Of a DNA stretch of 64,000 bases, positions 11,492-48,645 are shown in pieces. The stretch covers positions 192,319 to 256,318 of the forward strand of contig CAKUIF010000001.1 in the NCBI GenBank assembly GCA_934660915.1, written 5' to 3'. The DNA comes from an uncultured Olsenella sp. GTDB taxonomy: Bacteria > Actinomycetota > Coriobacteriia > Coriobacteriales > Atopobiaceae. Under the pieces are notes generated by a model. The model worked only from the letters and a program-made list of their open reading frames with translations. It was not told the DNA's origin and did no database searches. The stretch's first letter is position 1; the number at the start of each line of letters is the position of its first letter. The translations under genes and the position numbers were made by a program.

Positions 11492-12424
11492 ATGAACATA
11501 TTGGTTTTGGTCCCGGCAAACGATGAGCACAAGGCGACGCTCGAGGCGGCGGCTCCGGAGGCGAGCTTTACGTACACGAGCCCCGACACCGCGACCGACG
11601 AGGAGGTGGCCGCGGCCGACGTCATCGTGGGCAACCTCGCCGCAGATCGCCTGGGCGCGGCGGCGCGCCTGCGACTCATTCAGCTGAACTCGGCCGGCTA
11701 CGACAACTACACCGCGGCGGGCACCCTGCCTGCGGGTGCTGCGCTCTGCTGCGCCACGGGCGCATACGGGCAGGCAGTCTCGGAGCACCTCTTTGCCTCC
11801 GTCCTTGCCGTCATGAAGAAGCTCCCCGGCTACCGCGACCTGCAGCGCGGCCGTCGATGGGGCGACCTCGGCGAGGTCTGCTCCCCCGCCGGCGCAAACG
11901 TGCTCGTGCTCGGCGCGGGCGACATCGGCACGCACATCGCGGCGCTCTTCGCGGCCGTCGGGTCCCACGTCACCGGCGTGCGCCGCAGCGTTGTGGCGGC
12001 CAAGGCGCCGTTCGAGCGCATGGCGACCATGGACGAGCTGGCGGAGCTGCTGCCCGAGGCCGACGTCGTGGCATCGGTTCTGCCGAGCACGCCCCAGACG
12101 CACGGACTTGCCGACGCGGGCTTCTTTGCCCGGATGAAGGAGGGGGCCATCTTTGCGAACGCCGGCCGCGGCGACCTCGTCAACCAGTCGGCACTCCTCT
12201 CGGCGCTGCAGTCGGGCCACCTCGCGGGCGCGGCGCTCGATGTGTGCACGCCCGAGCCGCTGCCCGGCGACGACGCGCTGTGGACCGCGCCGAACCTGCT
12301 GCTCACCCCGCACATCTCGGGCTTCTACCACCTGCCCGTGACGCTCGACAACATCGTGGCGATCGCTGCGGAAAACATCCGCGCCCTTCTTTGCGGCGAC
12401 GAGCTGCGCAACCGCGTGCTCTAG
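11492..12424 (+). CDS. D-isomer-specific 2-hydroxyacid dehydrogenase, NAD-binding
   Basis: 310 aa. Rossmann motif VLGAGDIGTHIA. Family-typical C-terminal catalytic region. Confidence 0.8.
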   Translation: MNILVLVPANDEHKATLEAAAPEASFTYTSPDTATDEEVAAADVIVGNLAADRLGAAARLRLIQLNSAGYDNYTAAGTLPAGAALCCATGAYGQAVSEHLFASVLAVMKKLPGYRDLQRGRRWGDLGEVCSPAGANVLVLGAGDIGTHIAALFAAVGSHVTGVRRSVVAAKAPFERMATMDELAELLPEADVVASVLPSTPQTHGLADAGFFARMKEGAIFANAGRGDLVNQSALLSALQSGHLAGAALDVCTPEPLPGDDALWTAPNLLLTPHISGFYHLPVTLDNIVAIAAENIRALLCGDELRNRVL

Positions 12425-12495
12425 GCGGCCGGAGGCGGGCAGGGCTCGGGGTGGCCGGTCCTTCTTGCCCGTAGGTCCTTCTTGCCGCCAAAACA

Positions 12496-12569
12496 ACCGA
12501 TTAGCAACCGAAAACGGTGCATACGCCCTACCAGAGGTCCGTATGCACCGTTTTCGGTTGCTAATCGAC
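12496..12569. repeat. Hairpin repeat family R1 copy 1 (29-bp perfect arms CCGATTAGCAACCGAAAACGGTGCATACG)
   Basis: Perfect inverted repeat seen directly. Preceded by CCTTCTTGCC...GCCGCCAAAACAA leader shared with copy 2. Confidence 0.85.
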
Positions 12570-12722
12570 CAACAAGCGCATACCCCACGCCAATTTTTCA
12601 TCCCATATAACGACAAGGCAAAGACGACCTTGCGATCGCGCCGCCCGAGGAATGGTCCATTCCCGGGCGGCGATTGCTGTTCAAAGGTTGAACAGCAAAG
12701 GTTGAATCGAGGAGGTGAGCGC

Positions 12723-13397
12723 GTGGGCGATCAGCATGGATGGACGATTTCGCAGGTAGAGGACCTCATTGGCCTTCCTAGGCGCGATATTCAGCGTTGC
12801 TGCTACACCGGCAAAGGCGGCGTCGCGCTCCTCTTTCCTACCGACAGCACTTGGGGCCGCCGCGCCTACTCCGCCGATGACCTCGCGCGCCTGTACCTCG
12901 TTGCCCGCATGAAAGACCGGGGCATGAGCCTGCCCGAGATCAAGCGGGAGCTCGACGGCAGCGAGGCGGCGGGAAACGGCGACGACGTTCTTCTGGGCGA
13001 CTGCGCATCCCGCCTTGCCGAGGCACGCGAGCAGGTTGAGAGCCTGCTTTTGTCCGCCCAGGTGCTTCTATGTGCGGACAACCCCCGTGCAATTAAGTCT
13101 TTGATTTCTGACTATATTTACCGGTCGGCAGGAGCCAAGCTCGGCTGCTCAGGCCTCCTTGAGCGCCTTGAGCTATTCGATTTCGACAACACATCATCCG
13201 AGCTGCGGATATTTACGCTTCAGCTGCTCGACACTCCCGGCTTTGCCTTAGCGATCGAGCTCTGGCTTGGCACCGGCAGCGCCGAGCGGCTTGTCGATAG
13301 CCTAAGCAAGAAGGTCCCCGACTCCACCGCGATCTGCCGGTCTCAAAGCGAAGTGCAATATAGCCCTCGCTGTTCAACCATTGAACAGATACGTTAG
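12723..13397 (+). CDS. MerR-family transcriptional regulator
   Basis: GAGGAGG RBS then GTG at 12723. N-terminal HTH WTISQVEDLIGLPRRDIQRCCY. The upstream part of ORF 12465..13397 overlaps the R1 repeat and is rejected. Confidence 0.6.
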   Translation: MGDQHGWTISQVEDLIGLPRRDIQRCCYTGKGGVALLFPTDSTWGRRAYSADDLARLYLVARMKDRGMSLPEIKRELDGSEAAGNGDDVLLGDCASRLAEAREQVESLLLSAQVLLCADNPRAIKSLISDYIYRSAGAKLGCSGLLERLELFDFDNTSSELRIFTLQLLDTPGFALAIELWLGTGSAERLVDSLSKKVPDSTAICRSQSEVQYSPRCSTIEQIR

Positions 13398-13609
13398 AAG
13401 TCGATAAATGAGCCAACGGGGACATCGAGCGCTCGCGCAATCTTGCAGAGCACGTCGATGCCAACATCAGCACGGCCACCCTCTAGTTTCCAGAGGTATG
13501 ACCGGCTCGTGCCCGTCATGAGCGCAAGCTGCCGCTGAGAAATGCCTCGCTGTTCCCGCTCATGGCGAATATTGGAGCCTAAGCTCCTCTTTTCGGCTTC
13601 GTTGTCCAT
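13394..13609 (-). CDS. XRE-family HTH transcriptional regulator (71 aa)
   Basis: ISQRQLALMTGTSRSYLWKLEGGRADVGIDVLCKIARAL helix-turn-helix. Confidence 0.75.
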   Translation of the reverse strand: MDNEAEKRSLGSNIRHEREQRGISQRQLALMTGTSRSYLWKLEGGRADVGIDVLCKIARALDVPVGSFIDF

Positions 13610-13720
13610 AAGAAGAAGCGTAGGTATGCAATACTCGGCTATGGCTCTTTATAGAGAGCCATAGCCGAGGGCATTACTGAACAAACAGGCTCGCAACCGA
13701 AAAGTATTCAAAGGAGAACC

Positions 13721-15019
13721 ATGCGAATAATCAGACACGGAATCCTAGCGTCACTCATCTTTGCTTTCGCGCTGGCCCTCCCAATGGCAGCACGCGCGGA
13801 AGATCAGGTTTACTATCTCGGCTCGACCGTCAACGCTGGAACTGATGACGGGTATTCGAAGGACGGCGCCCTGACCGAAAAAGACCCTCATTACGGCTGG
13901 AGCCTTGGTCGTTTTTACGTCACCGGCTTCACAAACATACAGCGCGAGGGCAACAAGGTCACCTTCCTCAAAACAGCCGGCGACGACATCAAGCTGAAAT
14001 TTCGTCTTGGCCAGGAAATTGACCAGCTCAACGGTGATGAAGCATTAACAATCAACGATGATTCGAACGGCTACGATCAGCGTTTTGGAATCACCAAGTC
14101 GGACACCGGGTTCGGCCGCGGCACCCTCATCATCCGCCAAACCGATTACCAAAACAACGAATCAGCCCCGCAGGTTTTCGTCAATTACCTCGACGGGGTC
14201 CAAAAAGACGCTGAGACCGATGTCTCCTCGTTCGCCGAGGGCGATTACGAGGTCGTGCTCGACTACGAAATAAAGAAGGACGCGCGCAAGACCCCGGGCA
14301 TTGGCCCCATTCCGAGCATTTCCATCCTGCCGGAATACGGCAACTACACCATTCGGTTCAGCTTCTCCGTCCGCAACGGCAATACCATGGTCTTTCTCCT
14401 TGACTCAGAAACCGGCTCGGAGCTTACCAACAGTTCCGTTACAGAGAATGGCTTTACCGTCGACTTTGCCAAATCTCGCTACCTTGACATCTTCGTCAAG
14501 CGCTCGGTGCTCTCCGACAACGGTCAGGAGCTTGTCGACATCCGATCGAACGAGCCCGCGAGCGACGGGAAGAGCTACACGGACCCGGGCATCTACACCA
14601 TCACGGCAGTCAACCCGAGCACGAGCCAGACTACCGAGAAGGTCATTTATGTAGGCAACGACCCGCTGCTCAAATGCTATGCGATCACCGGATACTCCCT
14701 GGAGCAGATTCAGGACATGCTCGACCAGGGGGCCACCGTTAACGAAGACGGCTCCATCGTGTGGCCAACGCCTGATGACTCCGAAAAGGCGGGAACGGGT
14801 GAGACCACTCCTCAAGCAGAGCGGGACGACTCCAAGGGAAGCATGCCCTTCTTGCCGATCGCGCTCGTTGTGATCGTGGCAATCGCGGGCGTTGCTTTCG
14901 TTGCGAATAAGCGTCGGATAGCGGCTACAAACCGGGACGCGGACGCTCAGGCCAACATGGAATCAACCGGAATCGGCGCCTCGAACAACCCAGAGGGAGA
15001 TGCCCGAAATGAGGAGTAA
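13721..15019 (+). CDS. Secreted protein with N-terminal signal peptide and single C-terminal membrane anchor (432 aa, unknown function)
   Basis: MRIIRHGILASLIFAFALALPMAARA signal. C-terminal FLPIALVVIVAIAGVAFVANKRR. Noticeably lower GC than flanking core genes. Confidence 0.6.
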   Translation: MRIIRHGILASLIFAFALALPMAARAEDQVYYLGSTVNAGTDDGYSKDGALTEKDPHYGWSLGRFYVTGFTNIQREGNKVTFLKTAGDDIKLKFRLGQEIDQLNGDEALTINDDSNGYDQRFGITKSDTGFGRGTLIIRQTDYQNNESAPQVFVNYLDGVQKDAETDVSSFAEGDYEVVLDYEIKKDARKTPGIGPIPSISILPEYGNYTIRFSFSVRNGNTMVFLLDSETGSELTNSSVTENGFTVDFAKSRYLDIFVKRSVLSDNGQELVDIRSNEPASDGKSYTDPGIYTITAVNPSTSQTTEKVIYVGNDPLLKCYAITGYSLEQIQDMLDQGATVNEDGSIVWPTPDDSEKAGTGETTPQAERDDSKGSMPFLPIALVVIVAIAGVAFVANKRRIAATNRDADAQANMESTGIGASNNPEGDARNEE

Positions 15020-15722
15020 AGCAATTGCCATCCCCTTGTGCCTCGCGCTGGCGCTTCAAGGCTGCGGAGTTCCCGCTCAAACAGGAAATAGTTCCGACCC
15101 CGCAACGTCGCAAGAGTCTGCGCAACCCGTCACCGACAACGAACAAAAGATGTCAGACGCCAGCTTTATCAAGAAGCTCGAAGACGACATCTACCGATCA
15201 ATCGTCGACGACCTCGACGAAGACGGCAATCGCAAGGATCTTCAGGTCCAGGACGTGAAGGCTGTATATCTTTCCAAGGAGTACCTCGAGCAGTACACGT
15301 ACAACACCAAGGAAACCAAATTCTTTGGGACTACGCTCGGCGAGCTTGAAAAGAAGTTCGATAAACAAAAGTACGTTTTCGACATCGATGAGAACGGCAG
15401 GACGGTTTCCCATGCCGTCGACGATTTCGACAATACCTTCGATGAGGTCACGCAAGCCGCACTCTTGGGCACCGGGGTGATTCTCATCAGCGTGACCATC
15501 GTTTGCGTCACCGGCGGCGCACCAGTAACCGCGCTCGTTGCCTGCACAGCCAACAGCGCGACCGCGATCACGGCGAACCAAGCTCATCTTGCGCTTCTTG
15601 CCGCCAGCAGCGCCATCGCCATCTTTGATGACGGAGACGTCGGAGACGCGGCCAAGGATATCGCTTTCGACACGGGAAGCGACTTCGTCATGCAGGCAAT
15701 CGGCGGCAACGCCGTCGCTTAA
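15009..15722 (+). CDS. Lipoprotein with C-terminal hydrophobic region (unknown function)
   Basis: MRSKAIAIPLCLALALQGCG lipobox. GGAGGGAG RBS. Overlaps the previous gene by 11 nt. Confidence 0.55.
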   Translation: MRSKAIAIPLCLALALQGCGVPAQTGNSSDPATSQESAQPVTDNEQKMSDASFIKKLEDDIYRSIVDDLDEDGNRKDLQVQDVKAVYLSKEYLEQYTYNTKETKFFGTTLGELEKKFDKQKYVFDIDENGRTVSHAVDDFDNTFDEVTQAALLGTGVILISVTIVCVTGGAPVTALVACTANSATAITANQAHLALLAASSAIAIFDDGDVGDAAKDIAFDTGSDFVMQAIGGNAVA

Positions 15723-15755
15723 CACGAAGCAACCATTTAAACGGAAGGGAACTAC

Positions 15756-16427
15756 ATGGACGCAGGCAAAACCAAGGCGATCATGAACAAGAAGCTCGGG
15801 TTCTTTCTGACCAAACCGAAGATTTTGATTTACGGCATCGTTATCGGACTCGTCGCAGGCATCGTCGGCATATCAAGCCTTTTTCATGCCGGCGAGCAGC
15901 GGTATCGCCAAGCGAACACGCTGAGCCCCTCGATCGTCTTTTCTCGCATCGTGTCGAGCAATGAGTTGGTAAGCGCCACGCAACAGTACTCAGTCGTGGA
16001 TAAGTCGGTCGACGACAACGTGCTGCTCGGGATCATCCACATCCCCTTTACCGAGAACAGCTTCTGGTACCGCTACTGCGGGACCATCAAGGTCGGCGTC
16101 GACTTGAAGAAAGCAAGCTACGAGACGTCGGCGGACGGCCGCACCATCACCATTTCCCTCGAGCAGCCGTACATCATCTCCAACACGCCCGATATGGATA
16201 AATCCGGCGTCCTCGAGGAACACAACAACATCTTCAACCCCATTCACGTCGAGGACGTGGACGCCTTCCAACGAAAGTGCATCGAGGATACCGAGAAGGA
16301 AATCGCGAAGGGCGGCATCTTCGACGAGGCAAAAGCCAACACCGAGGAAAACATCAGGCAGATGTTCAACTCCGCTCTTGGCGACTCTTACACAATCGAG
16401 TTCGACTGGCGCGACGCCACGGAATAG
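15756..16427 (+). CDS. Small membrane protein with one N-terminal TM segment (tentatively DUF4230-like)
   Basis: N-terminal TM (ILIYGIVIGLVAGIVGISSLF). The DUF4230 assignment is by size and architecture only. Confidence 0.5.
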   Translation: MDAGKTKAIMNKKLGFFLTKPKILIYGIVIGLVAGIVGISSLFHAGEQRYRQANTLSPSIVFSRIVSSNELVSATQQYSVVDKSVDDNVLLGIIHIPFTENSFWYRYCGTIKVGVDLKKASYETSADGRTITISLEQPYIISNTPDMDKSGVLEEHNNIFNPIHVEDVDAFQRKCIEDTEKEIAKGGIFDEAKANTEENIRQMFNSALGDSYTIEFDWRDATE

Positions 16428-16437
16428 GAGAGATTTA

Positions 16438-16536
16438 TGAACATCGGTAAGAACGTGATTATCATCGCAGCAGCCGCCATCATCGCTTTTCTCGTCTTCT
16501 TCTGGCTCAACAACTCCGTTCTGTGCTGGGGATGAC
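16438..16536 (+). CDS. 32-aa hydrophobic peptide (MNIGKNVIIIAAAAIIAFLVFFWLNNSVLCWG)
   Basis: GGAGAG RBS 6 nt upstream. Lies 10 nt after the previous gene. Below the ORF-track length cutoff. Confidence 0.35.
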
Positions 16537-16600
16537 CGAGGCGGACGGGAACCGAGCAGGGCGGGCCGCCCTTCTTGCCGGCCCTTCATGCCGCCAAACA

Positions 16601-16676
16601 ACCGATTAGCAACCGAAACCGGTGCAAAAAGCTGGAAAGAAGGGCTTTTGCGCCGGTTTCGGTTGCTAATCGACCG
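16601..16676. repeat. Hairpin repeat family R1 copy 2
   Basis: ACCGATTAGCAACCGAAACCGGTGCAAAA / TTTTGCGCCGGTTTCGGTTGCTAATCG arms. Loop contains GAAAGAAGGGCTTTTGC. Same leader CCTTCTTGCCG...GCCGCCAAACAA as copy 1. Confidence 0.85.
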
Positions 16677-16806: not shown

Positions 16807-17706
16807 GTGCCCATGCCTCAATCCCCCATCGCCCTCATCGCCTTCGACCTCGACGGGACCGTGTTCGGCTCGCCGACGAACCAGGTCGTCTCGCCGCGCG
16901 TCTGCGCCGCCTTCCAAGCGGCCCACGACGCCGGCGCGCTCATCACCGTCGCGTCCGGCCGCCCGTTCTGGATGCTCGGCACGCAGATCCCCGCCGCGCC
17001 GTGGCTCGACTTCGCCATCAGCTGCAACGGCGCGCGCGTCGCCGGCACCCACCGAAGCGACCTCGACTTCGACGCGAGCTTCCCGCGCGCGCTCGCCGAG
17101 GACACCCTCGCCTCGATCGCCGAGCTCGGCGGCACCGTGAGCATCCACACCGACGCCGAGTCGCTTATGGAGACGCGCCACTGCACGCACCTGCTCGACG
17201 ACTTCGAAGAGCGTAAGGCCGAGGCGAGCGCGAACGGCGCCGAGGCCGCAGACGCCGACCGCGGCAACCCGATCGACGAGCTCCTTTCCATCTTCGGCGG
17301 CGTGGGCGTGGACTCCGCGCTCGACGCCTTCCTTGCCCGCCCCGCCCAGCAGCTCGACAAGGTCGATTGCGCGATGCCCTCCCGCAATGCGGCAGACGCC
17401 CTCGAGGCGCGCCTGAACAAGCTCGGCGGCATCGGCATCGCCCGCCTGGACTCGAAGAACTTCGAGCTCACGAGCGCTGCGGCCTCCAAGGGCGCGGCGG
17501 CCACCGACCTTTGCCGCGAGCTCGGCATCGACCCGGCCCGCGCCGTCGCGTTCGGCGACTCCGCCAACGACCTCAGCATGTGCGGGCGCGCCCTCACCTT
17601 CGTTGCCATGGGCAACGCGACCGACGAGGTCAAGGCCGCTGCCGACGACGTGACCGCCACCGTCTGGGACGACGGCGTCGCCCAGTGGATCGAGGGGCGC
17701 CTGTAA
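16807..17706 (+). CDS. Cof-type HAD-superfamily hydrolase
   Basis: IAFDLDGTV motif I. 299 aa. Confidence 0.8.
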   Translation: MPMPQSPIALIAFDLDGTVFGSPTNQVVSPRVCAAFQAAHDAGALITVASGRPFWMLGTQIPAAPWLDFAISCNGARVAGTHRSDLDFDASFPRALAEDTLASIAELGGTVSIHTDAESLMETRHCTHLLDDFEERKAEASANGAEAADADRGNPIDELLSIFGGVGVDSALDAFLARPAQQLDKVDCAMPSRNAADALEARLNKLGGIGIARLDSKNFELTSAAASKGAAATDLCRELGIDPARAVAFGDSANDLSMCGRALTFVAMGNATDEVKAAADDVTATVWDDGVAQWIEGRL

Positions 17707-19467: not shown

Positions 19468-19503
19468 CCGGGCGGGTCGGGGAAATCCTCGGCCCGCTTT
19501 TTG
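19468..19503 (+). terminator. Candidate xpt terminator (imperfect GC stem plus T6)
   Basis: GGGCGGGTCGGGGAAATCCTCGGCCCGC followed by TTTTTT. Confidence 0.45.
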
Positions 19504-19587
19504 GGACAAAAGGGACGGGGTATTCTGTCCCAACTTGTGGAGACGCTCCACATCTTGGGACAGAATACCCCGTCCCTTTTGTCCCAA
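19501..19587. repeat. Perfect 33-bp inverted repeat with palindromic 21-bp spacer (nested or cruciform-capable palindrome)
   Basis: TTGGGACAAAAGGGACGGGGTATTCTGTCCCAA - CTTGTGGAGACGCTCCACATC - exact reverse complement. Each arm itself ends in TTGGGACA/TGTCCCAA. Confidence 0.9.
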
Positions 19588-22380: not shown

Positions 22381-22575
22381 TTACCGAAAAAAAGGGAAGC
22401 CCTCGCCGGAGAAAGGGGAAACGGCGAGGGCTACAAGGAAAGAAGGTATTTATCTTGTTCCCGCTGTTGTCCGGCTCAAACACCCGAAAGTTAAGTCCAC
22501 ATTCCCGCCACGTCCCCTCCACGCCCGCAACACAAACCCGCGAATCCAGTCAGGCAAAAATGACTGCCAAATCAG

Positions 22576-22619
22576 ACAGGCTGGAAATGCAGCTATTTCA
22601 GCCTGTCTGATTTGGCAGG
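22576..22619. repeat. Hairpin of the CAGACAGGCTG repeat family (R2), upstream of ygiQ
   Basis: GCCAAATCAGACAGGCTG...CAGCCTGTCTGATTTGGC. The same 17-mer recurs at 45692-45710. Confidence 0.6.
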
Positions 22620-25228: not shown

Positions 25229-25271
25229 CGGTGCGGGCCCACGGGGCAAGAAGTACTTCTCTCTAACTCCC

Positions 25272-25330
25272 ATGCGGCGGACGCATCCGACCGGTTTTCG
25301 GCCCAGATGCGTCCGCCGCATGGGAGTTAG
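25272..25330. terminator. Bidirectional hairpin terminator between def (+) and ddl (-)
   Basis: CCATGCGGCGGACGCATCCGACCGGTTTTCGGCCCAGATGCGTCCGCCGCATGG, about 20-bp stem. Confidence 0.7.
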
Positions 25331-29480: not shown

Positions 29481-29750
29481 CGGGACCGTCGGTAAGACCG
29501 GCGAACCACTGCGCCAGAATCGCCGACCGTCGGTAAGACCGGCTGCCCGCTGCGCCAAAACCCGGGAGCGTCGGTATCCGCAGCCGGGTTTCCACGCGCT
29601 GATAATACCGACGCTCCCCGATTCCCGCGCACAGCACGGGCCGCCTTACCGACGGTCGAGGTTTTAGGCGCAGACCCTACCGACGCTCCCGGTTTCTCGC
29701 GCAGCCGGCGTCGCGATTTACCGACGCTCTCGTTATCCCGCGCAGCCGGC
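29481..29750. repeat. Degenerate ~41-bp repeat array: 3 forward units (ACCGTCGGTAAGACCGG...CTGCGCCA..) then 4 inverted units (..GCGCAG...TACCGACG.TC)
   Basis: Read directly in the MFS / isochorismatase intergenic region. Not CRISPR (mixed orientation, no conserved repeat/unique spacer alternation). Confidence 0.8.
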
Positions 29751-35606: not shown

Positions 35607-35730
35607 GCGAAGTCGGTATCCTTTTTCGAAAACCTTGGGTAGACCAGCACAGATACTTGCTAAACAGCAGGGTTTTGATACTTTATCGATACCTCTACTC
35701 AGGGTTTTGAAATTCAGATACCGACTTCGC
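35607..35730. repeat. Hairpin repeat family R3 copy A (~36-bp imperfect arms GCGAAGTCGGTATCCTTTTTCGAAAACCTTGGGTAG, ~52-nt loop)
   Basis: Read directly. The 5' arm is near-identical to the 5' arm of copy B at 36845. Confidence 0.8.
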
Positions 35731-35774
35731 ATGTTATTTGCTCTTTAGCGCCCCTCAGACCGAGAGGACATCGC

Positions 35775-36833
35775 ATGGAAACGGTTTTCAGCGGCCCGTC
35801 GGCCTTCAAATACTATCGAACACCACCGCAGGTCCTTGCGCTCTGCCACGAACTGCCCATGTCGCAGGACCGCGCCACACGCACCGCCTTCCCCAACCAC
35901 CCGACCGCAAAAGCCGTGCTCGGGCAGACGGTGCATACGCTCGTGACGAGCAAATCCGAGCAAACAGGGGCCAAGTACGTAAAGCAGCACCTATGGAAAG
36001 GGCCGCGTCCCTCAGTCGACATATTCGAAGACCCCGTGATCGGCACGCTGACCTCGCCGTTATTCACCCTCTTGACCCTGGCGCGCGACTACAACGCCAT
36101 CGAAGTCGCCATGGCAATGTATGAGTTATGCGGCAAGTTCTCGGTTTACGCACCGTCCCCGGAGATCGAAACGTTGCTTCCGTCCCCGCAAGATGCTCAA
36201 CGGCTCGGATTCGGTTGGAACCGAGTGACGGGAACCGACGGACGACCGAGTTCGTTATGGATCCGCGAGCCGATCATCGAGCTCGGCGACCTCAAGGGAT
36301 TCGTCGACGAGATCAAGGGGATGCGCGGATCTACGACGTTTGCAAAGGCTGCCGATATGGTGCTCGGCGTCGTCCGCTCCCCGCTCGAGGCGAGCACCGC
36401 GATGCTCCTCGGGCTGCCTCGCTCAAAGGGCGGGTACGGTCTTAGCATCCAAACCGACAAGGTTATCCGACTCGGAGCGAGCGCAAGGGCAATGGTCGGC
36501 AAGGATTACCTCGTCGCAGATATCTATGTTGAGTCAAAGGATGGCAGGCACGCGCTCGACATCGAGTGCCAAGGAGAAACCGTTCATTCGGGTATCGGCG
36601 CACGAATCTCCGACGCGGACCGTGCGTGCGCCATCGAGGCGTCGGGCGTCGACATCCTCTATTTGACCGAACGCCAACTGAAGGATGCCGACAACCTCGC
36701 GCTCTTTATCGAATTGGTCGAGGGAAGGCTCCACGAGAAGATGCCTGCGAGGACAGAGCGTATGAAAAACACCGAGCAAGAGCTCCGCTACCACCTTTTC
36801 CAGAATTGGGAAACCCTTTGCGGCGTCTCCTAG
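35775..36833 (+). CDS. Hypothetical protein (352 aa). C-terminal region resembles a DUF559 / Vsr-like (PD-(D/E)xK-fold) domain, N-terminal ~230 aa unknown.
   Basis: C-terminal ALDIECQGETVHSGIGARISDADRACAIEASGVDILYLTERQL resembles the DUF559 consensus as I recall it (EvDG..H....D..R...L...G..vlR.t). Lower GC than the flanks. Recognition by memory only, not verified. Confidence 0.5.
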   Translation: METVFSGPSAFKYYRTPPQVLALCHELPMSQDRATRTAFPNHPTAKAVLGQTVHTLVTSKSEQTGAKYVKQHLWKGPRPSVDIFEDPVIGTLTSPLFTLLTLARDYNAIEVAMAMYELCGKFSVYAPSPEIETLLPSPQDAQRLGFGWNRVTGTDGRPSSLWIREPIIELGDLKGFVDEIKGMRGSTTFAKAADMVLGVVRSPLEASTAMLLGLPRSKGGYGLSIQTDKVIRLGASARAMVGKDYLVADIYVESKDGRHALDIECQGETVHSGIGARISDADRACAIEASGVDILYLTERQLKDADNLALFIELVEGRLHEKMPARTERMKNTEQELRYHLFQNWETLCGVS

Positions 36834-36844
36834 ATCAATTACTG

Positions 36845-36972
36845 TGCGAAGTCGGTATCCTTTTTCGAAAACCTTGAGTAGCCAATCAAAAACAGGCGGC
36901 AAAACCCCAGGAAATGAGGTTCTGCCGCCTGTTATACTCGCACTTCCTGAATTAGGATACCGACTTCGCGCA
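36845..36972. repeat. Hairpin repeat family R3 copy B (17-19-bp arms, nested inner hairpin, T6 tail)
   Basis: TGCGAAGTCGGTATCCTTTTTCGAAAACCTTGAGTAG ... AGGATACCGACTTCGCGCA followed by GTTTTTT. Likely also terminates the upstream gene. Confidence 0.8.
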
Positions 36973-37010
36973 GTTTTTTGCCGATGACGCTGGAAAACCC
37001 GAGGAACCGA

Positions 37011-41650: not shown

Positions 41651-41705
41651 CGGAAGGCACTTCTTTGCAAACGCGGCGCGGAGCGCTCTTTCCCCCGCCG
41701 TCACA

Positions 41706-41781
41706 GCGCAAGCTCCCTCCTGTTTCGACCATTTTTACCCGGAAATGGGGCCGCAAATGGGTCAAACAGGAGGGAGCTTGT
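41706..41781. terminator. Bidirectional hairpin (20-bp arms AGCTCCCTCCTGTTTCGACC / GGTCAAACAGGAGGGAGCTT) between convergent genes
   Basis: Read directly. 32-nt loop. Confidence 0.5.
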
Positions 41782-41844
41782 TGATTGCCGGGCTCGGGGA
41801 TTCCAGCGTCTGGCAAGAAGGACCCTGCCGGCGCTTCCCGCCCG

Positions 41845-43272
41845 CTACTTGCCGCCGGCGTCCTTCTTTGCCGCGGCGGCTTTGCCAGCGGCGATCTTTG
41901 CCTCGATGTCCACCTTCGGGACGGGCGCCGAGGACTTGACGACGGTCTTCGCGCCGCGCGTCGTCACGGTGGCGCCGGCGACGGCGGGCGCGGCGGGCTT
42001 CTTTCTAGCCTTGGGCTTGACGGTCACGCCGCCCCTGGGCGCGCGGGCCCCGCCCTTGGCAGCAGAGCCGGCCGTGAAGGAGCCCGTGTCGATGAAGGAG
42101 CGGATGCCGCCGGTAAAGCCGTCCCAGAAGCCGTGCCAACGGTGGTAGATCGAGGTGCCGCCGTTGGAGCGCATGCCCATGCACGGCGCGGCGATGAGGA
42201 CCGGCAGCAGGTACTCGATGGCTCGCCAGATGATGAAGCCGGCGGCGAGGTGGCTGCCGTACATGTCCTTGAAGAGGTACGCGAAGCCGACCTCGGCGCC
42301 GCCCGTGCCGCCCGGCAGCGGCACTGCGTTGACCAGCAGCTCAAGCATGGAGCCCGACGCCGTGCACAGCAGAAGGTCCGCCGGCTCGCCGAACGAGCGC
42401 AGCACGAAGTACGGCAGCGCGTACATGCAACCGAGCTGGAGCAGGGTGACCACCATGGTCAGGCACATCTCGAGCACGTTGGCGGCAGAGCTCTTGAAGT
42501 CGCGCGAGAAGACCTCAATCTGCGTGTTCACGAACTTATACCACTCGTTGTACTTCTCCTCCTTGATCCAACGGTGGCGGTGCGCCAGCTTGAGCGCCCA
42601 GTTGCAAATGGCCATGACGGGCTTGGGCAGCAGGCACATGGCCATGATGGCCGCGAGCTGCACGACCTTGAAGCCAAAGAGGAAGATGCCGATGAGGGTC
42701 ACGTCGCCGAACGTCTCGTAGAAGTAGCCGCCGCAAAAGAGCAGCATGATGGCGGCGAATACGCCCTCGCCGGCCTCGTAGAGCACGAAGCGGGTGAAGT
42801 TCAGGGCGCCCGCCTCGCCCACCGAGAGCCCGGCGCGCGTGAGGCGGAAGATCTGGGCCGGCTGCGCGCCCACGCCGGAGGGCGTCATGCGCATGAAAAA
42901 GACGCCGGAGGCCTCGACGCTCATGAGGTCGCGGATACCCACGGGCGAGTCGGGGTCGTGGATAACCGACAGCACGTAGGCGAGGACGCCAAAGACGTAG
43001 TAGAAGAGGAAGCAGACGACGCCCGCGACAATCCACCTGACGTCGACGCCGGCGAGCGACGTCACGAACTCGTCAACCTGCCCGGTAAAGACCAGGTAGA
43101 CCGCATAGGCGATCATCACAAAGAAGAGGAAGACGAGGGTCTTGCGGGCCTGGCCCATCGACTCCTTATCGGCCTCGTCGCCCTCCATGATCGAGATCTT
43201 CTTCTTGGTCGTCTTTCCGCCGGCGACCTTGAGGGCGACCTTCTTCTTTGGCTTCTTGAGCTCGTCTGCCAC
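41845..43272 (-). CDS. UPF0104 / lysylphosphatidylglycerol-synthase-TM-domain family membrane protein with Lys/Ala-rich termini
   Basis: 475 aa, multi-TM. N-terminal KKPKKKVALKVAGGKTTKKK. Flippase-like / LPG synthase TM-region-like core. Confidence 0.65.
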   Translation of the reverse strand: MADELKKPKKKVALKVAGGKTTKKKISIMEGDEADKESMGQARKTLVFLFFVMIAYAVYLVFTGQVDEFVTSLAGVDVRWIVAGVVCFLFYYVFGVLAYVLSVIHDPDSPVGIRDLMSVEASGVFFMRMTPSGVGAQPAQIFRLTRAGLSVGEAGALNFTRFVLYEAGEGVFAAIMLLFCGGYFYETFGDVTLIGIFLFGFKVVQLAAIMAMCLLPKPVMAICNWALKLAHRHRWIKEEKYNEWYKFVNTQIEVFSRDFKSSAANVLEMCLTMVVTLLQLGCMYALPYFVLRSFGEPADLLLCTASGSMLELLVNAVPLPGGTGGAEVGFAYLFKDMYGSHLAAGFIIWRAIEYLLPVLIAAPCMGMRSNGGTSIYHRWHGFWDGFTGGIRSFIDTGSFTAGSAAKGGARAPRGGVTVKPKARKKPAAPAVAGATVTTRGAKTVVKSSAPVPKVDIEAKIAAGKAAAAKKDAGGK

Positions 43273-43371: not shown

Positions 43372-43442
43372 CGATTAGCAACGAAAACCGGTGCAAAACG
43401 CCGCGAAGAAGGGCTTTTGCACCGGTTTCGGTTGCTAATCGA
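43372..43442. repeat. Hairpin repeat family R1 copy 3 (opposite orientation to copies 1-2)
   Basis: GCGATTAGCAACGAAAACCGGTGCAAAACGCCGCGAAGAAGGGCTTTTGCACCGGTTTCGGTTGCTAATCG. Downstream GGCAAGAAG...CTTCTTGCC tail. Confidence 0.85.
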
Positions 43443-43524
43443 TGGATGGGGCGGCAAGAAGCCCTTGGGCGGCTGGCGTGGCGGCACTTCTTGCCAGTCT
43501 TCCTTTATCGACGCTGCTTTGCCG

Positions 43525-44325
43525 CTAGAGATTTCCCGGTTCGAACTCGTCGATATACGCCTCGATAACGGCGGATCCGGCATCCGACGACGACTGCGGG
43601 TAGCTGAACTGGATGCCGTTGACGTAATCGCCACCCACGTACTGCTTGGCGTAGCACTCGGTACCGTCCTCCTCGACCCACGACGCGACGGCCCAGGTGC
43701 TTCCCATGGCTTTGTACGAGACGTCGTGGGCTGAGGCGTACGAGTCGAGCACGGAGGAGGGCGTCTCGCTAAGGGCGTTGGCGCTGCCCCACACGCGGAC
43801 CTCAATGCCGGATGAGGGCTCTCGGAAGGTCACTCCGTCGCCGTTATCGGAAGCGTCGACGAGCTTGTAGCTCGCAGGGAGCGCGACCTTGTAGCCGTAG
43901 CGATCGTTCATATATGTAAGCTTTCCGGAGGCAACGGTCACGTCGCTTTGCGCGGCAAAGAGCGCGTCGTCTTGGTCGAAGCCGGGTTCTTGGGCGGCAT
44001 CGCCCGAGCCAGAGACCGCGCCCGAGCCGTTCGCCTCCGCCGTTGCCGTATCCTGGGCTGTGCCCGCACCGGACCCGGCCTGCGATTGCGCGGGCTGCGA
44101 CTGTGAAGGCAGCGTCGAGCTAAGGCATATGAAGGCGAAGGCGCCGACTGCCATGACCACGAGGGCGCCTGCGACCACGGCGATTATCTGCACAACGCTC
44201 GGGTGCAGGGGCGTCGAGGACTTTTGTCGGATCTTTCCCGTGGGAAAATCGTCCTGCTGCGCGCCGCACTCCGGGCAGTACTGCGCCCCGTCTTCCAGCT
44301 CGTGCCCGCAGTTCATGCAATACAT
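43525..44325 (-). CDS. Zinc-ribbon (CxxC...CxxC) N-terminal domain membrane protein with Ser/Gln/Ala-rich linker and extracellular domain
   Basis: MYCMNCGHELEDGAQYCPECG then a TM segment (IIAVVAGALVVMAVGAFAFI). Start at internal Met of ORF 43525..44373. Confidence 0.6.
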   Translation of the reverse strand: MYCMNCGHELEDGAQYCPECGAQQDDFPTGKIRQKSSTPLHPSVVQIIAVVAGALVVMAVGAFAFICLSSTLPSQSQPAQSQAGSGAGTAQDTATAEANGSGAVSGSGDAAQEPGFDQDDALFAAQSDVTVASGKLTYMNDRYGYKVALPASYKLVDASDNGDGVTFREPSSGIEVRVWGSANALSETPSSVLDSYASAHDVSYKAMGSTWAVASWVEEDGTECYAKQYVGGDYVNGIQFSYPQSSSDAGSAVIEAYIDEFEPGNL

Positions 44326-44440
44326 GGCCGACTCCGATCCCTTCTTTGCCTGTTCGTTCCAACAGTAGCGCAAACGATTATTGGAGGAGACCCCGCAGAC
44401 AACAACGGCGCCTTATCCGTCATAGTTGGCTTCGCGGGAG

Positions 44441-44510
44441 GATTAGCAACGAAAACCGGTGCAAAGAGCCGCAAAGAAGAGCTTTTGCGCCGGTTTCGGT
44501 TGCTAATCGA
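44441..44510. repeat. Hairpin repeat family R1 copy 4
   Basis: GATTAGCAACGAAAACCGGTGCAAAGAGCCGCAAAGAAGAGCTTTTGCGCCGGTTTCGGTTGCTAATCG. GGCAAGAAG x2 downstream. Confidence 0.85.
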
Positions 44511-44562
44511 TGAGCGGGATGGCAAGAAGGGCCCCGCAAGCGGGCAAGAAGTGCCAGCCCGG

Positions 44563-45630
44563 CTACGGGAGGATAATCCCGCCGCCGAGGCACTCGAGGC
44601 CGTCGTAGACCACGGCCGACTGCCCGGGGGCCACACGGCGCTGCGGCGTATCGAAGCGGACGGTCGCCGAGGCCCCGCCTTGCGCCGCCTCGAGCACGCA
44701 AGGAACGAGTTCTCCCGTGTGCCGCGTGCGGACGACGTACTCCCCCGCCGCCGGCGGCTCGCCCGCGATCCAGCGGCAGTCGCCGAGCGCGAGCTCGTCC
44801 GTGAACAGCGCGGGGCTCATGCGGTCGGCGGTCACGTAGACGGTGTTCGTCTGGACGTCCGTGCGCACGACGTAGCGCGCGGGTCCGCCGCCCAGGTCGA
44901 GCCCGCGGCGCTGCCCCACGGTAAAGAGGAACGCGCCGTCGTGGTGCCCGAGCACGCGCCCGGTCTCGAGCTCCACGACGTCGCCCGCGCGGCGCTCGAG
45001 CGTGTCGAGCAAAAACGTGCGGATGCCCACGGGGCCGATGAAGCAGATCCCGTCGGAGTCGGGCTTTGCCTCCAAGCCGAGGCCGCGCTCCGCGACCATG
45101 CGCCTGACCTCGGTCTTGTTCGGTATGTCGCCGATGGGAAAGAGGGTCTTCGCGAGCACTTCTTTGCCAACGCGCCACAGGAAGTAGGTCTGGTCCTTGT
45201 GCTCGTCGGCGGCACGCAGCAGGCGCGTCCGGCCGTCGGCGTCCGTATCGACGCGCCCGTAGTGGCCCGTGGCCACAAAGTCCGCGCCCGCGGCGAACGC
45301 CTTGTCGGCGAAGGTGCCGAACTTGACGGTCTGGTTGCACATGACGTCGGGGTTCGGCGTGAGGCCGTGGGCGTAGGCGTCGACGAGGTAGTCGACGACG
45401 GTGGCCTTGTACTCGGCCTCGCAGTCCCAGACCTCGAGGTCGATGCCCAGGCTCACCGCGACGCGCTCGGCGTCCGCAAGGTCGTCGGCCCAAGCGCACT
45501 TGAAGCCCGGCAGGTCGCGCGACCAGTTGCGCATATAGACCGCCGTCACGTCATGGCCCGCCTCGCACAGAAGCGCGCACGCGAGCGCGGAGTCGACGCC
45601 GCCGGATAATCCGGCGTACACCTTGGCCAT
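44563..45630 (-). CDS. mnmA: tRNA-specific 2-thiouridylase MnmA
   Basis: MAKVYAGLSGGVDSA PP-loop. 355 aa. Confidence 0.85.
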   Translation of the reverse strand: MAKVYAGLSGGVDSALACALLCEAGHDVTAVYMRNWSRDLPGFKCAWADDLADAERVAVSLGIDLEVWDCEAEYKATVVDYLVDAYAHGLTPNPDVMCNQTVKFGTFADKAFAAGADFVATGHYGRVDTDADGRTRLLRAADEHKDQTYFLWRVGKEVLAKTLFPIGDIPNKTEVRRMVAERGLGLEAKPDSDGICFIGPVGIRTFLLDTLERRAGDVVELETGRVLGHHDGAFLFTVGQRRGLDLGGGPARYVVRTDVQTNTVYVTADRMSPALFTDELALGDCRWIAGEPPAAGEYVVRTRHTGELVPCVLEAAQGGASATVRFDTPQRRVAPGQSAVVYDGLECLGGGIILP

Positions 45631-48040: not shown

Positions 48041-48116
48041 TGGAGCGGGCTACGGGGTTCGAACCCGCGACCTCCACCTTGGCAAGGTGGCGCGCTACCA
48101 ACTGCGCTAAGCCCGC
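48041..48116 (-). tRNA. tRNA-Gly (GCC), copy 1
   Basis: GCGGGCTTAGCGCAGTTGGTAGCGCGCCACCTTGCCAAGGTGGAGGTCGCGGGTTCGAACCCCGTAGCCCGCTCCA. Confidence 0.85.
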
Positions 48117-48569: not shown

Positions 48570-48645
48570 TGGAGCGGGCTACGGGGTTCGAACCCGCGAC
48601 CTCCACCTTGGCAAGGTGGCGCGCTACCAACTGCGCTAAGCCCGC
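48570..48645 (-). tRNA. tRNA-Gly (GCC), copy 2 (identical to copy 1)
   Basis: Identical 76-nt sequence to 48041-48116. Confidence 0.85.

What the first reader, a model, noticed from the sequence alone, without database searches (positions are those of the whole stretch)
12470..12575. Intergenic hairpin-repeat family R1 (GATTAGCAACCGAAACCGGTGCA arms), four copies in 64 kb, with polarity
Copies at 12496-12569, 16601-16676, 43372-43442 and 44441-44510 share 25-29-bp arms that are nearly perfect inverted repeats. Copies 2-4 also share a loop core (A)AAGAAGGGCTTTTGC. Each copy carries an asymmetric ~40-bp leader CCTTCTTGCCG...GCCGCCAAACAA. It lies upstream of copies 1-2 and, reverse-complemented, downstream of copies 3-4, so the element is ~120 bp and oriented. 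The copies bracket accessory, lower-GC DNA rather than core genes. They lack T-tracts, so they are not ordinary terminators. This looks like a lineage-specific MITE/REP-like element, possibly recognised by a recombinase or tyrosine-transposase (REP/RAYT-like) that is not in this window.
Basis: seen in the sequence. Interest (0 to 1): 0.6.

Follow-up and report, generated by a model that had tools for sequence, protein, structure and literature searches.

The report
Small intergenic palindrome repeat family
Four copies of a 70-base, near-perfect hairpin-forming repeat really are present, but they are an ordinary lineage-specific intergenic palindrome family that spreads locally by recombination, and their supposed "leader" is a separate 9-base word that is over-represented throughout this genome.

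Summary
The four hairpins are real: 12498-12567, 16603-16672, 43372-43441 and 44440-44510. The arm matches 8 times against 0 expected, and the folds are -36 to -53 kcal/mol.

The family is confined to a narrow Paratractidigestivibacter (formerly Olsenella) clade, with about 8-9 sites across relatives. It is absent from phage, plasmid and viral collections and matches no Rfam family.

It is gained and lost. Copy C is missing in same-species contigs, and copy D is deleted in two contigs, leaving a solo half-arm. There is no target duplication and no transposase nearby. New copies sit 0.1-4 kb from their closest relative and carry that relative's flank, which fits recombination or gene conversion better than transposition.

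The "120-bp oriented unit" fails. The loop orientation relative to the leader differs between copy B and copies C/D.

The leader reduces to CTTCTTGCC, the window's commonest 9-mer (28 copies against 0.4 expected). It is mostly sense-oriented after gene ends and is used in genes against codon bias.

Verdict: a new member of a known kind (REP/MITE-like intergenic palindromes), failing the REP, MITE and attC membership tests. Its function was not tested here. The polar 9-mer is the more unusual thing seen.

The parts
12498..12567 (.). R1 copy A. A 70-bp palindrome with 28-nt perfectly complementary arms and a private inner loop (ATACGCCCTACCAGAGGTCCGTAT). It lies after the 2-hydroxyacid dehydrogenase gene (11492-12424 +) and 155 nt before a MerR-like gene (12723-13397 +).
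   Evidence: I23; -52 kcal/mol; 87 bits
16603..16672 (.). R1 copy B. It lies after the DUF4230 gene (15756-16427 +) and a small 32-aa ORF (16437-16535), and 135 nt before the HAD hydrolase gene (16807-17706 +).
   Evidence: -50.5/-44.6 kcal/mol; 92 bits
43372..43441 (.). R1 copy C. It lies between the Zn-ribbon gene (43525-44325 -) and the LPG-synthase-TM gene (41845-43272 -). It is present only with the window's allele of the Zn-ribbon gene and absent in L016 and L045-L056.
   Evidence: 88 bits
44440..44510 (.). R1 copy D. It lies between mnmA (44563-45630 -) and the Zn-ribbon gene. It is conserved in three allele groups and deleted in L046/L048, where a solo GTTGCTAATCG remains.
   Evidence: 81 bits
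12461..12486 (+). Two tandem copies of the genomic word CTTCTTGCC (12461-12469 and 12478-12486).
16571..16592 (+). The word CTTCTTGCC (16571-16579) plus a one-mismatch copy CTTCATGCC (16584-16592). This is the "leader" of copy B.
43453..43495 (.). An inverted pair of the word (GGCAAGAAG 43453-43461, CTTCTTGCC 43487-43495) that forms a hairpin after the Zn-ribbon gene. It is also present in relatives that lack copy C, so it predates the hairpin.
44521..44551 (-). Two copies of the word (44521-44529 and 44543-44551, read on the - strand) after mnmA, flanking a CUUG-tetraloop mini-hairpin.
12568..16602 (+). Variable segment between copies A and B. It holds the MerR-like gene, two unknown genes (13721-15019 and 15000-15722), DUF4230 and the 32-aa ORF. 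GC is about 0.55-0.59. It lacks 13293-15739 in L001/L017 and is wholly absent in L177/L179/L181.
43525..44325 (-). Zn-ribbon protein gene between copies D and C. It is hypervariable within the species: 53-90% nucleotide identity against 97-99% in the flanks.

Best explanation
R1 is a low-copy, clade-restricted family of 70-bp near-perfect palindromes. Each has two 24-30-nt arms whose outer 11 bp, (C)GATTAGCAAC, are almost invariant. The copies sit in intergenic DNA of Paratractidigestivibacter.

New copies arise rarely and locally. A nearby copy is copied together with a few tens of bases of its flank into another intergenic region, by non-reciprocal recombination or template switching. The event is seeded on short shared sequence, notably the abundant word CTTCTTGCC. 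Neighbouring copies homogenise each other by gene conversion, and copies are lost by palindrome deletion.

Shown: the repeat itself, its clade restriction, gain and loss, the absence of target duplications, local kinship of copies, homogenisation, and maintenance of pairing.

Inferred: most copies lie between co-directional genes just after a gene end. Read-through RNA would therefore carry a 27-30-bp duplex of -36 to -53 kcal/mol. This would most plausibly act as a 3' end barrier or processing site (an RNase III-type substrate, or a terminator without a U-tract) that uncouples neighbouring genes, as described for other co-transcribed intergenic repeats. The element may equally be near-neutral.

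The "leader" is not part of the element. It is a separate genome-wide polar word.
For: Reality and restriction:
- establish the four copies.
- Among species-representative genomes, only one related genome (Olsenella sp. UMGS304) carries the arms.
- 23 of 27 metagenome hits belong to the same high-GC clade.
- There are no hits in viral contigs, plasmids or phages.
- The model finds none in relatives whose 2-Hacid_dh is 64-76% identical.

Gain and loss:
- Site C is empty in L016 and in L045-L056. This includes the L051-L056 contigs, which are 97-99% identical in the flanks.
- Site D in L046/L048 keeps only GTTGCTAATCG.

Copying with flank, and local kinship:
- C shares the unique right arm GGTTTTCGTTGC and the flank CTTCTTGCC-G(C/T)CCCATCCAT with D-type copies.
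- A and B share CCTTCTTGCCGCCAAA(A)CAAC.
- Site H carries two hairpins 104 nt apart.

Homogenisation:
- In L001, A and B are 88% identical over 130 nt and share derived bases. A_L001 against A_window is only 73%.

Pairing:
- 93% of cells are paired in 25 distinct hairpins, and 6 pairs change on both sides. Whole-arm variants such as CCGAAAACGG/CCGTTTTCGG stay complementary.

Position:
- 5-6 of 8 sites lie between co-directional genes and one between convergent genes.
- Where R1 is absent, relatives have another long hairpin (L177) or a canonical terminator (L185) in the same slot.

Background: co-transcribed intergenic repeats at gene 3' ends that affect mRNA stability are described in PMC3184786 and PMC3733652.
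Against: - No expression data exist, so the RNA role is inference only.
- G.U against C.A asymmetry does not track the transcribed strand: B is more stable on the sense strand, D on the antisense strand. This gives no support for selection on one RNA strand.
- Site G lies between divergent genes, about 95 nt upstream of an asparaginase start.
- The near-invariance of the outer 11 bp (about 1% deviation in 50 arms) is stronger than a purely structural role needs. It may mean an unidentified protein recognises the ends. Gene conversion can explain it only in part.
- Only one clean gain (C) was reconstructed.
Confidence: 0.55

Rival explanations
1. R1 is a miniature transposable element (MITE, or REP/REPIN-like) mobilised in trans by a transposase encoded elsewhere in the genome.
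For: - Presence/absence polymorphism exists.
- The termini are the most conserved part, as in transposase-bound ends.
- The copies are intergenic and mostly downstream of genes, as for REPs (PMC3733652).
Against: - There is no target duplication, and the filled site C replaces about 15-25 nt of the empty site.
- There is no GTAG or CGTC tag (against PMC3733652).
- Only about 4-6 copies occur per genome.
- Each new copy lies 0.1-4 kb from its closest relative and shares that relative's flank.
- No transposase lies beside any site.
- There are no matching ends in plasmids, phages or viral contigs.
Confidence: 0.15
2. The hairpins are recombination sites (att- or attC-like) that bound exchangeable gene cassettes. 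This would explain why pairs in direct orientation bracket variable DNA.
For: - A-B and C-D each bracket variable DNA in direct orientation.
- The A-B segment is absent in L177/L179/L181.
- The right edge of the divergent Zn-ribbon allele coincides with copy C.
- Synteny changes at the hairpin in L013, L015 and L024.
Against: - The Zn-ribbon gene is present without copy C in all other lineages.
- The three-gene operon of the A-B segment occurs in L185 with no R1 at all.
- The 2.4-kb indel has breakpoints at 13293 and 15739, not at hairpins.
- There is no integrase or recombinase nearby.
- Copy A has no extrahelical bases, and the RYYYAAC/GTTRRRY cores are not matched.
- Contigs often break inside R1, so the synteny breaks may be assembly artefacts.
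Confidence: 0.08
3. R1 is a binding site for a sequence-specific protein (a regulator or nucleoid protein) or a cis-regulatory RNA that controls the downstream gene.
For: - The outer 11 bp of both arms are nearly invariant across about 8 sites and several lineages, although the flanks differ by 8-22%.
- 6 of 8 sites lie 70-160 nt upstream of a gene start, including the divergent site G.
Against: - The downstream genes have no common theme: MerR-like, HAD hydrolase, LPG synthase, Zn-ribbon, MFS, asparaginase and PhoH.
- The half-sites lie 50 bp apart.
- Site F is convergent.
- Copies are dispensable in close relatives.
- There is no Rfam match.
Confidence: 0.12
4. The hairpins are simply transcription terminators that happen to share sequence.
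For: - They sit after gene ends.
- They are very stable stems.
- Relatives have a terminator or another hairpin in the same slot.
Against: - No T-run follows them, while canonical hairpin-plus-T-run terminators are used at other gene ends in the same window.
- Independent terminators would not keep identical 24-nt arms.
- Site G is between divergent genes.
Confidence: 0.1

Closest known systems
REP / BIME and REPIN elements (RAYT-associated repetitive extragenic palindromes)
   Same: Both are intergenic, palindromic and mostly downstream of ORFs between co-directional or convergent genes. Both are plausibly co-transcribed and lineage-specific (PMC3733652).
   Different: R1 is one 70-bp palindrome with 24-30-nt arms rather than 20-40-bp units. 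It has no GTAG or CGTC tag. It has only a handful of copies per genome rather than tens to hundreds. No RAYT was seen, and spread appears local and recombinational.
Bacterial MITEs that fold into long hairpins (Correia/CREE of Neisseria, ERIC of enterobacteria)
   Same: Both have terminal inverted repeats with conserved ends and fold into long RNA hairpins when co-transcribed. Both lie in the 3' regions of genes and show strain-to-strain presence/absence (PMC3184786).
   Different: R1 has no target-site duplication (Correia and ERIC have TA). It is half their size, has far fewer copies, and its filled and empty sites are not cleanly related.
Integron attC sites
   Same: Both are imperfect palindromes at the 3' ends of genes, and pairs flank variable genes.
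   Different: The core sites are not matched, copy A has no extrahelical bases, there is no integrase or array, and cassette content varies independently of the hairpins.
DNA uptake sequences of Neisseriaceae and Pasteurellaceae (comparison for the CTTCTTGCC word only)
   Same: It is a 9-10-mer at about 0.45 per kb. It is accommodated in genes against codon bias, appears as inverted pairs in terminator-like hairpins, and has a one-base "dialect" (CTTCTCGCC) in a related species (PMC3630211, PMC2817400, PMC1939737).
   Different: The word is strongly co-oriented with transcription (24 of 28). No uptake specificity or competence is known for this group. Nothing about uptake was tested here.

Membership tests
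REP/REPIN (RAYT-associated) | 20-40-bp palindromic unit with an unpaired GTAG or CGTC tag at one end (PMC3733652) | tested here: not met
   All 25 distinct hairpins start (C)GATTAGCAAC, paired to the very end. There is no GTAG or CGTC tag.
REP/REPIN (RAYT-associated) | High copy number (tens to hundreds per genome) | tested here: not met
   The only species-representative genome with the arms has 4 sites matching the strict pattern. About 8-9 distinct sites occur across all clade contigs.
REP/REPIN (RAYT-associated) | A RAYT (Y1 transposase) gene flanked by the repeats | tested here: inconclusive
   None was found among the neighbours of the 8 sites or in the 64-kb window. The whole genome could not be scanned.
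REP/REPIN (RAYT-associated) | Extragenic, predominantly after ORFs between unidirectional or convergent genes | tested here: met
   7 of 8 sites meet this. Site G lies between divergent genes.
MITE | Terminal inverted repeats | tested here: met
   The arms are 24-30 nt and 93% paired.
MITE | Target-site duplication flanking the element | tested here: not met
   Filled against empty site C shows no duplication and about 15-25 nt replaced. No consistent direct repeats flank A-D.
MITE | A parent IS with the same ends | tested here: inconclusive
   No single arms occur elsewhere in the window. There are no hits in plasmids, phages or viral contigs. The whole genome was not available.
Integron attC / gene cassette | R''/R' core sites RYYYAAC ... 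GTTRRRY (definition from general knowledge, not checked against a paper here) | tested here: not met
   The corresponding heptamers are TAGCAAC and GTTGCTA, and they lie 3-4 bp inside the stem.
Integron attC / gene cassette | Extrahelical bases marking the recombined strand (definition from general knowledge) | tested here: not met
   Copy A is 28/28 complementary (I23). C and D have a 2x2 mismatch, not bulges.
Integron attC / gene cassette | Array of co-oriented sites next to an integrase, with cassettes gained and lost at the sites | tested here: not met
   There is no integrase. The gene is present without site C, the operon is present without R1 in L185, and the indel breakpoints lie off the hairpins.
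Intrinsic (Rho-independent) terminator | Stem-loop followed by a U-tract | tested here: not met
   No terminator-like site is called at any copy, and the tails read ATCGACC, ATCGATG and similar. Canonical terminators occur elsewhere in the window.
Described RNA families (Rfam 15) | Score at or above a family's gathering threshold | tested here: not met
   Only tRNAs pass the threshold. R1 gives 27-35 bits to a plant miRNA hairpin model whose threshold is 69 bits.

The most novel reading that the evidence does not exclude
The most novel reading not excluded has two parts.

First, CTTCTTGCC, with its dialect CTTCTCGCC in a sister lineage, may be a selected, transcription-polar genomic signal of a kind not described for Coriobacteriia. 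It could be an uptake-sequence-like recognition word, or a termination or RNA-fate signal.

Second, R1 may be a recombination module that uses this word as its homology anchor. R1 pairs would then mark places where alleles and accessory genes are swapped, analogous to Neisseria intergenic mosaic elements together with DUS.
Probability: 0.1. Interest if true: 0.7.

Novelty: new member of a known kind. Interest (0 to 1): 0.3.

Why it matters
R1 adds one more lineage-specific intergenic palindrome family, here in a little-studied group of gut Actinomycetota.

It is a fairly clean case in which copies appear to spread by local copy-with-flank recombination and homogenise by gene conversion rather than by transposition.

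Practically, the palindrome breaks metagenome assemblies: contigs start or stop inside it.

The more consequential by-product is the polar 9-mer. It occurs about once per 2.3 kb, is written into genes with rare codons, and clusters after stop codons. If it proves to be an uptake, termination or RNA-fate signal, it would be new for this phylum.

Tried and rejected
- Rfam at gathering thresholds and at permissive E-values returned only tRNAs and sub-threshold miRNA-hairpin look-alikes.
- A viral-contig scan with one arm (17-mer with Ns) gave only single chance hits and was uninformative. The two-arm pattern gave zero hits.
- Plasmid and phage BLAST gave no match.
- Four AT-rich metagenome hairpins (L011, L012, L020, L026) matched the degenerate two-arm pattern. 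They come from unrelated low-GC contexts and were treated as chance palindromes.
- The promoter scan found nothing tied to the hairpins.
- PHROGs and NCBIfam scans of the A-B segment gave no sign of a phage or integrative element.
- The cassette/att reading was rejected because gene content varies independently of the hairpins.
- Strand choice from G.U against C.A asymmetry gave no consistent answer.
- The synteny breaks at site H (L013, L015, L024) were not used as evidence, because contigs frequently end inside R1.
- A literature search for the 9-mer itself found nothing.
- One batch folding call failed on a length limit and was redone in a script.

Full report
**Observation**

- The 23-nt arm matches 8 times at up to 3 mismatches, against none in 100 shuffles.
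- Copy A has 28/28 complementary arms.
- Predicted hairpin energies are -36 to -53 kcal/mol on either strand.
- A covariance model built from 25 distinct family members scores the four copies at 68-92 bits and nothing else in the window above 28 bits.
- No T-run follows any copy. Canonical hairpin-plus-T-run terminators are present at other gene ends in the same window.

**Context**

All four copies lie between co-directional genes, after a gene end:
- A lies after a D-2-hydroxyacid dehydrogenase gene and before a MerR-like gene.
- B lies after DUF4230 and a 32-aa ORF, and before a HAD hydrolase gene.
- D lies after mnmA and before a Zn-ribbon protein gene.
- C lies after that Zn-ribbon gene and before an LPG-synthase-TM gene.

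**Who has it**

- Among one genome per species, the arms occur only in "Olsenella sp. UMGS304". Its locus L001 is syntenic with window 9.4-19.5 kb at about 92% identity.
- Sources name close protein homologues Paratractidigestivibacter.
- A two-arm pattern scan of metagenomes gave 27 loci. 23 are from the same high-GC clade, and 4 are unrelated AT-rich hairpins treated as chance.
- Together these define about 8-9 sites (A-H) and 25 distinct sequences.
- The family is absent from viral contigs, plasmids and phages. It matches no Rfam family.
- It is not found by the model in relatives whose dehydrogenase is 64-76% identical.

**Anatomy and conservation**

- The outer (C)GATTAGCAAC of both arms is almost invariant. 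Inner arm positions vary, and pairing is kept: 93% of cells are paired and 6 pairs change on both sides.
- Whole-arm variants remain complementary, for example CCGAAAACGG with CCGTTTTCGG in copy A and CGAAAACCGG with CCGGTTTTCG in D of L045.
- Which strand carries G.U rather than C.A does not follow the direction of transcription. There is thus no sign of selection on one RNA strand.

**Gain, loss and kinship**

- Copy C is present in every contig that carries the window's allele of the Zn-ribbon gene. It is absent in L016 and in the two other allele groups. These include contigs that are 97-99% identical to the window in the flanks, so the site is polymorphic within the species.
- The filled site has no target duplication. 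About 15-25 nt of the empty site are replaced by GCCCCATCCAT, the hairpin and CC.
- Both that flank and the unusual right arm GGTTTTCGTTGC are those of site D, 1 kb away. The inverted pair of CTTCTTGCC beside C is present in the empty sites too, so it predates the hairpin.
- Site D is deleted in L046/L048, leaving a solo GTTGCTAATCG. This is a palindrome deletion rather than an empty site.
- A and B share the 21-nt flank CCTTCTTGCCGCCAAA(A)CAAC.
- In L001, A and B are 88% identical over 130 nt and share derived bases, whereas A of L001 is only 73% identical to A of the window. This indicates gene conversion between copies 1.6 kb apart.
- Site H carries two hairpins 104 nt apart.
- No transposase or recombinase lies beside any site.

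These facts fit local copy-with-flank recombination plus homogenisation better than transposition.

**The "leader"**

- Only the 9-mer CTTCTTGCC, 10-11 nt from the hairpin, is shared by all four copies.
- Read leader-first, the loop of B reads AAGAAGGGC and those of C and D read GCCCTTCTT. There is therefore no rigid oriented 120-bp unit.
- The 9-mer is the commonest 9-mer in the window: 28 copies against 0.41 expected.
- Fourteen copies are intergenic. 13 of those are sense-oriented 10-140 nt after a gene or tRNA end, often in tandem or as an inverted pair.
- Within genes, 8 of 22 Leu-Leu-Ala tripeptides are spelled CTT-CTT-GCC, although CTT is only 13.7% of Leu codons (about 0.2 expected). 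The antisense reading Gly-Lys-Lys is not enriched.
- Orientation flips with gene blocks inside the window (24 of 28 co-oriented), so it follows transcription. I infer this does not reflect replication direction.
- The word is equally frequent in UMGS304-like loci, at 27 per 54.5 kb.
- 9 of 11 copies are intact in an orthologous 88-93% identical contig.
- A more distant relative (L181) instead has CTTCTCGCC 9 times in 15 kb. These include an inverted pair with a T-run, and two copies at orthologous positions in the P-type ATPase gene. Other relatives show no enrichment.
- I could not explain this word. The uptake-sequence analogy (PMC1939737, PMC3630211, PMC2817400) fits its density, codon cost, inverted pairs and dialect, but not its polarity.

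**Variable DNA between copies**

- The A-B segment has lower GC and lacks 13293-15739 in L001/L017. It is absent in L177, L179 and L181, where the dehydrogenase is followed directly by other genes.
- Its three-gene operon occurs in L185 without any R1.
- The Zn-ribbon gene between D and C is hypervariable: 53-90% identity against 97-99% in the flanks.
- R1 is therefore associated with variable DNA, but the hairpins are not the junctions of the variation. This argues against an att- or attC-like role.
- Where R1 is missing, relatives have another long hairpin (L177) or a canonical terminator (L185) in the same slot. This is positional support for a 3' end role.
- Site G lies between divergent genes, so that role is not universal.

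**Comparison and verdict**

R1 works like the intergenic palindromic repeats reviewed in PMC3733652 and PMC3184786. It fails the tested membership features of three families:
- REP: no tag and low copy number.
- MITE: no target duplication.
- attC: no core sites, no extrahelical bases, no integrase.

It is a new member of a known kind and of modest interest.

**Caveats**

- No expression data are available.
- No complete genome was available to search for a mobilising enzyme.
- Only one gain was reconstructed.
- Contigs often break inside R1. The apparent synteny breaks at site H were therefore not used as evidence.

Noticed in passing
window-wide, e.g. 12461, 12478, 16571, 20473, 21172, 24708, 25245, 29778, 41812, 43453, 43487, 44521, 44543, 48498, 58227; also L181:1284-1307: CTTCTTGCC is the commonest 9-mer in the window (28 copies against 0.41 expected). 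24 of 28 copies are co-oriented with transcription, and they cluster just after gene ends. It spells 8 of 22 Leu-Leu-Ala tripeptides using the rare CTT codon. It is equally frequent in a sister species, and a more distant relative has the one-base variant CTTCTCGCC at orthologous positions. The function is unexplained (uptake-sequence-like, or a termination or RNA-fate signal).
   Followed up: partly
window 19501-19587: A second long palindrome with 42-nt arms, 95% complementary (TTGGGACAAAAGGGACGGGGTATTCTGTCCCAA...). Copies also sit at the ends of contigs L001 and L008, so it is another repeated hairpin family.
   Followed up: no
window 22564-22618, 25264-25329, about 41690-41790; L177:7970-8050: Several unique long, near-perfect hairpins without T-runs lie in 3' intergenic regions. 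In a species that lacks R1, one occupies the slot of R1 copy A. Long hairpins after genes appear to be a general habit of this clade.
   Followed up: partly
window 43525-44325 (-): The Zn-ribbon protein gene is hypervariable within the species: 53-90% nucleotide identity against 97-99% in the flanks, with three allele groups at 70-74% amino-acid identity. It gives a weak match to a type VII secretion-associated domain.
   Followed up: partly
window 13293-15739; L185:10038-12678: A 2.4-kb indel relative to L001/L017 carries two genes of unknown function. Together with DUF4230 they form a three-gene operon, which is also found in a more distant relative next to a cas9-like gene.
   Followed up: partly
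window 16437-16535: A small 32-aa hydrophobic ORF (MNIGKNVIIIAAAAIIAFLVFFWLNNSVLCWG) lies after DUF4230 and is conserved in L185. It is probably a real small membrane protein gene.
   Followed up: no
window 35607-35730 and 36832-37010: Inverted repeats containing GCGAAGTCGGTATCC flank a 384-aa ORF (35679-36833) that has no Pfam or NCBIfam hit. This may be an insertion-sequence-like unit.
   Followed up: partly
window 29509-29729: A cluster of inverted repeats built on CGTCGGTA(A/T) units (76-nt and 52-nt arms) lies between convergent genes.
   Followed up: no
window 48041-48116 and 48570-48645: Two identical tRNA-Gly(GCC) genes lie 529 nt apart, next to tRNA-Cys. A CTTCTTGCC word lies in the spacer between them.
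   Followed up: no
L040, L041, L043 (starts); L183, L184 (ends): Public metagenome contigs repeatedly start or end inside an R1 hairpin. The palindrome breaks assemblies, so apparent synteny breaks at R1 in short contigs should be distrusted.
   Followed up: partly
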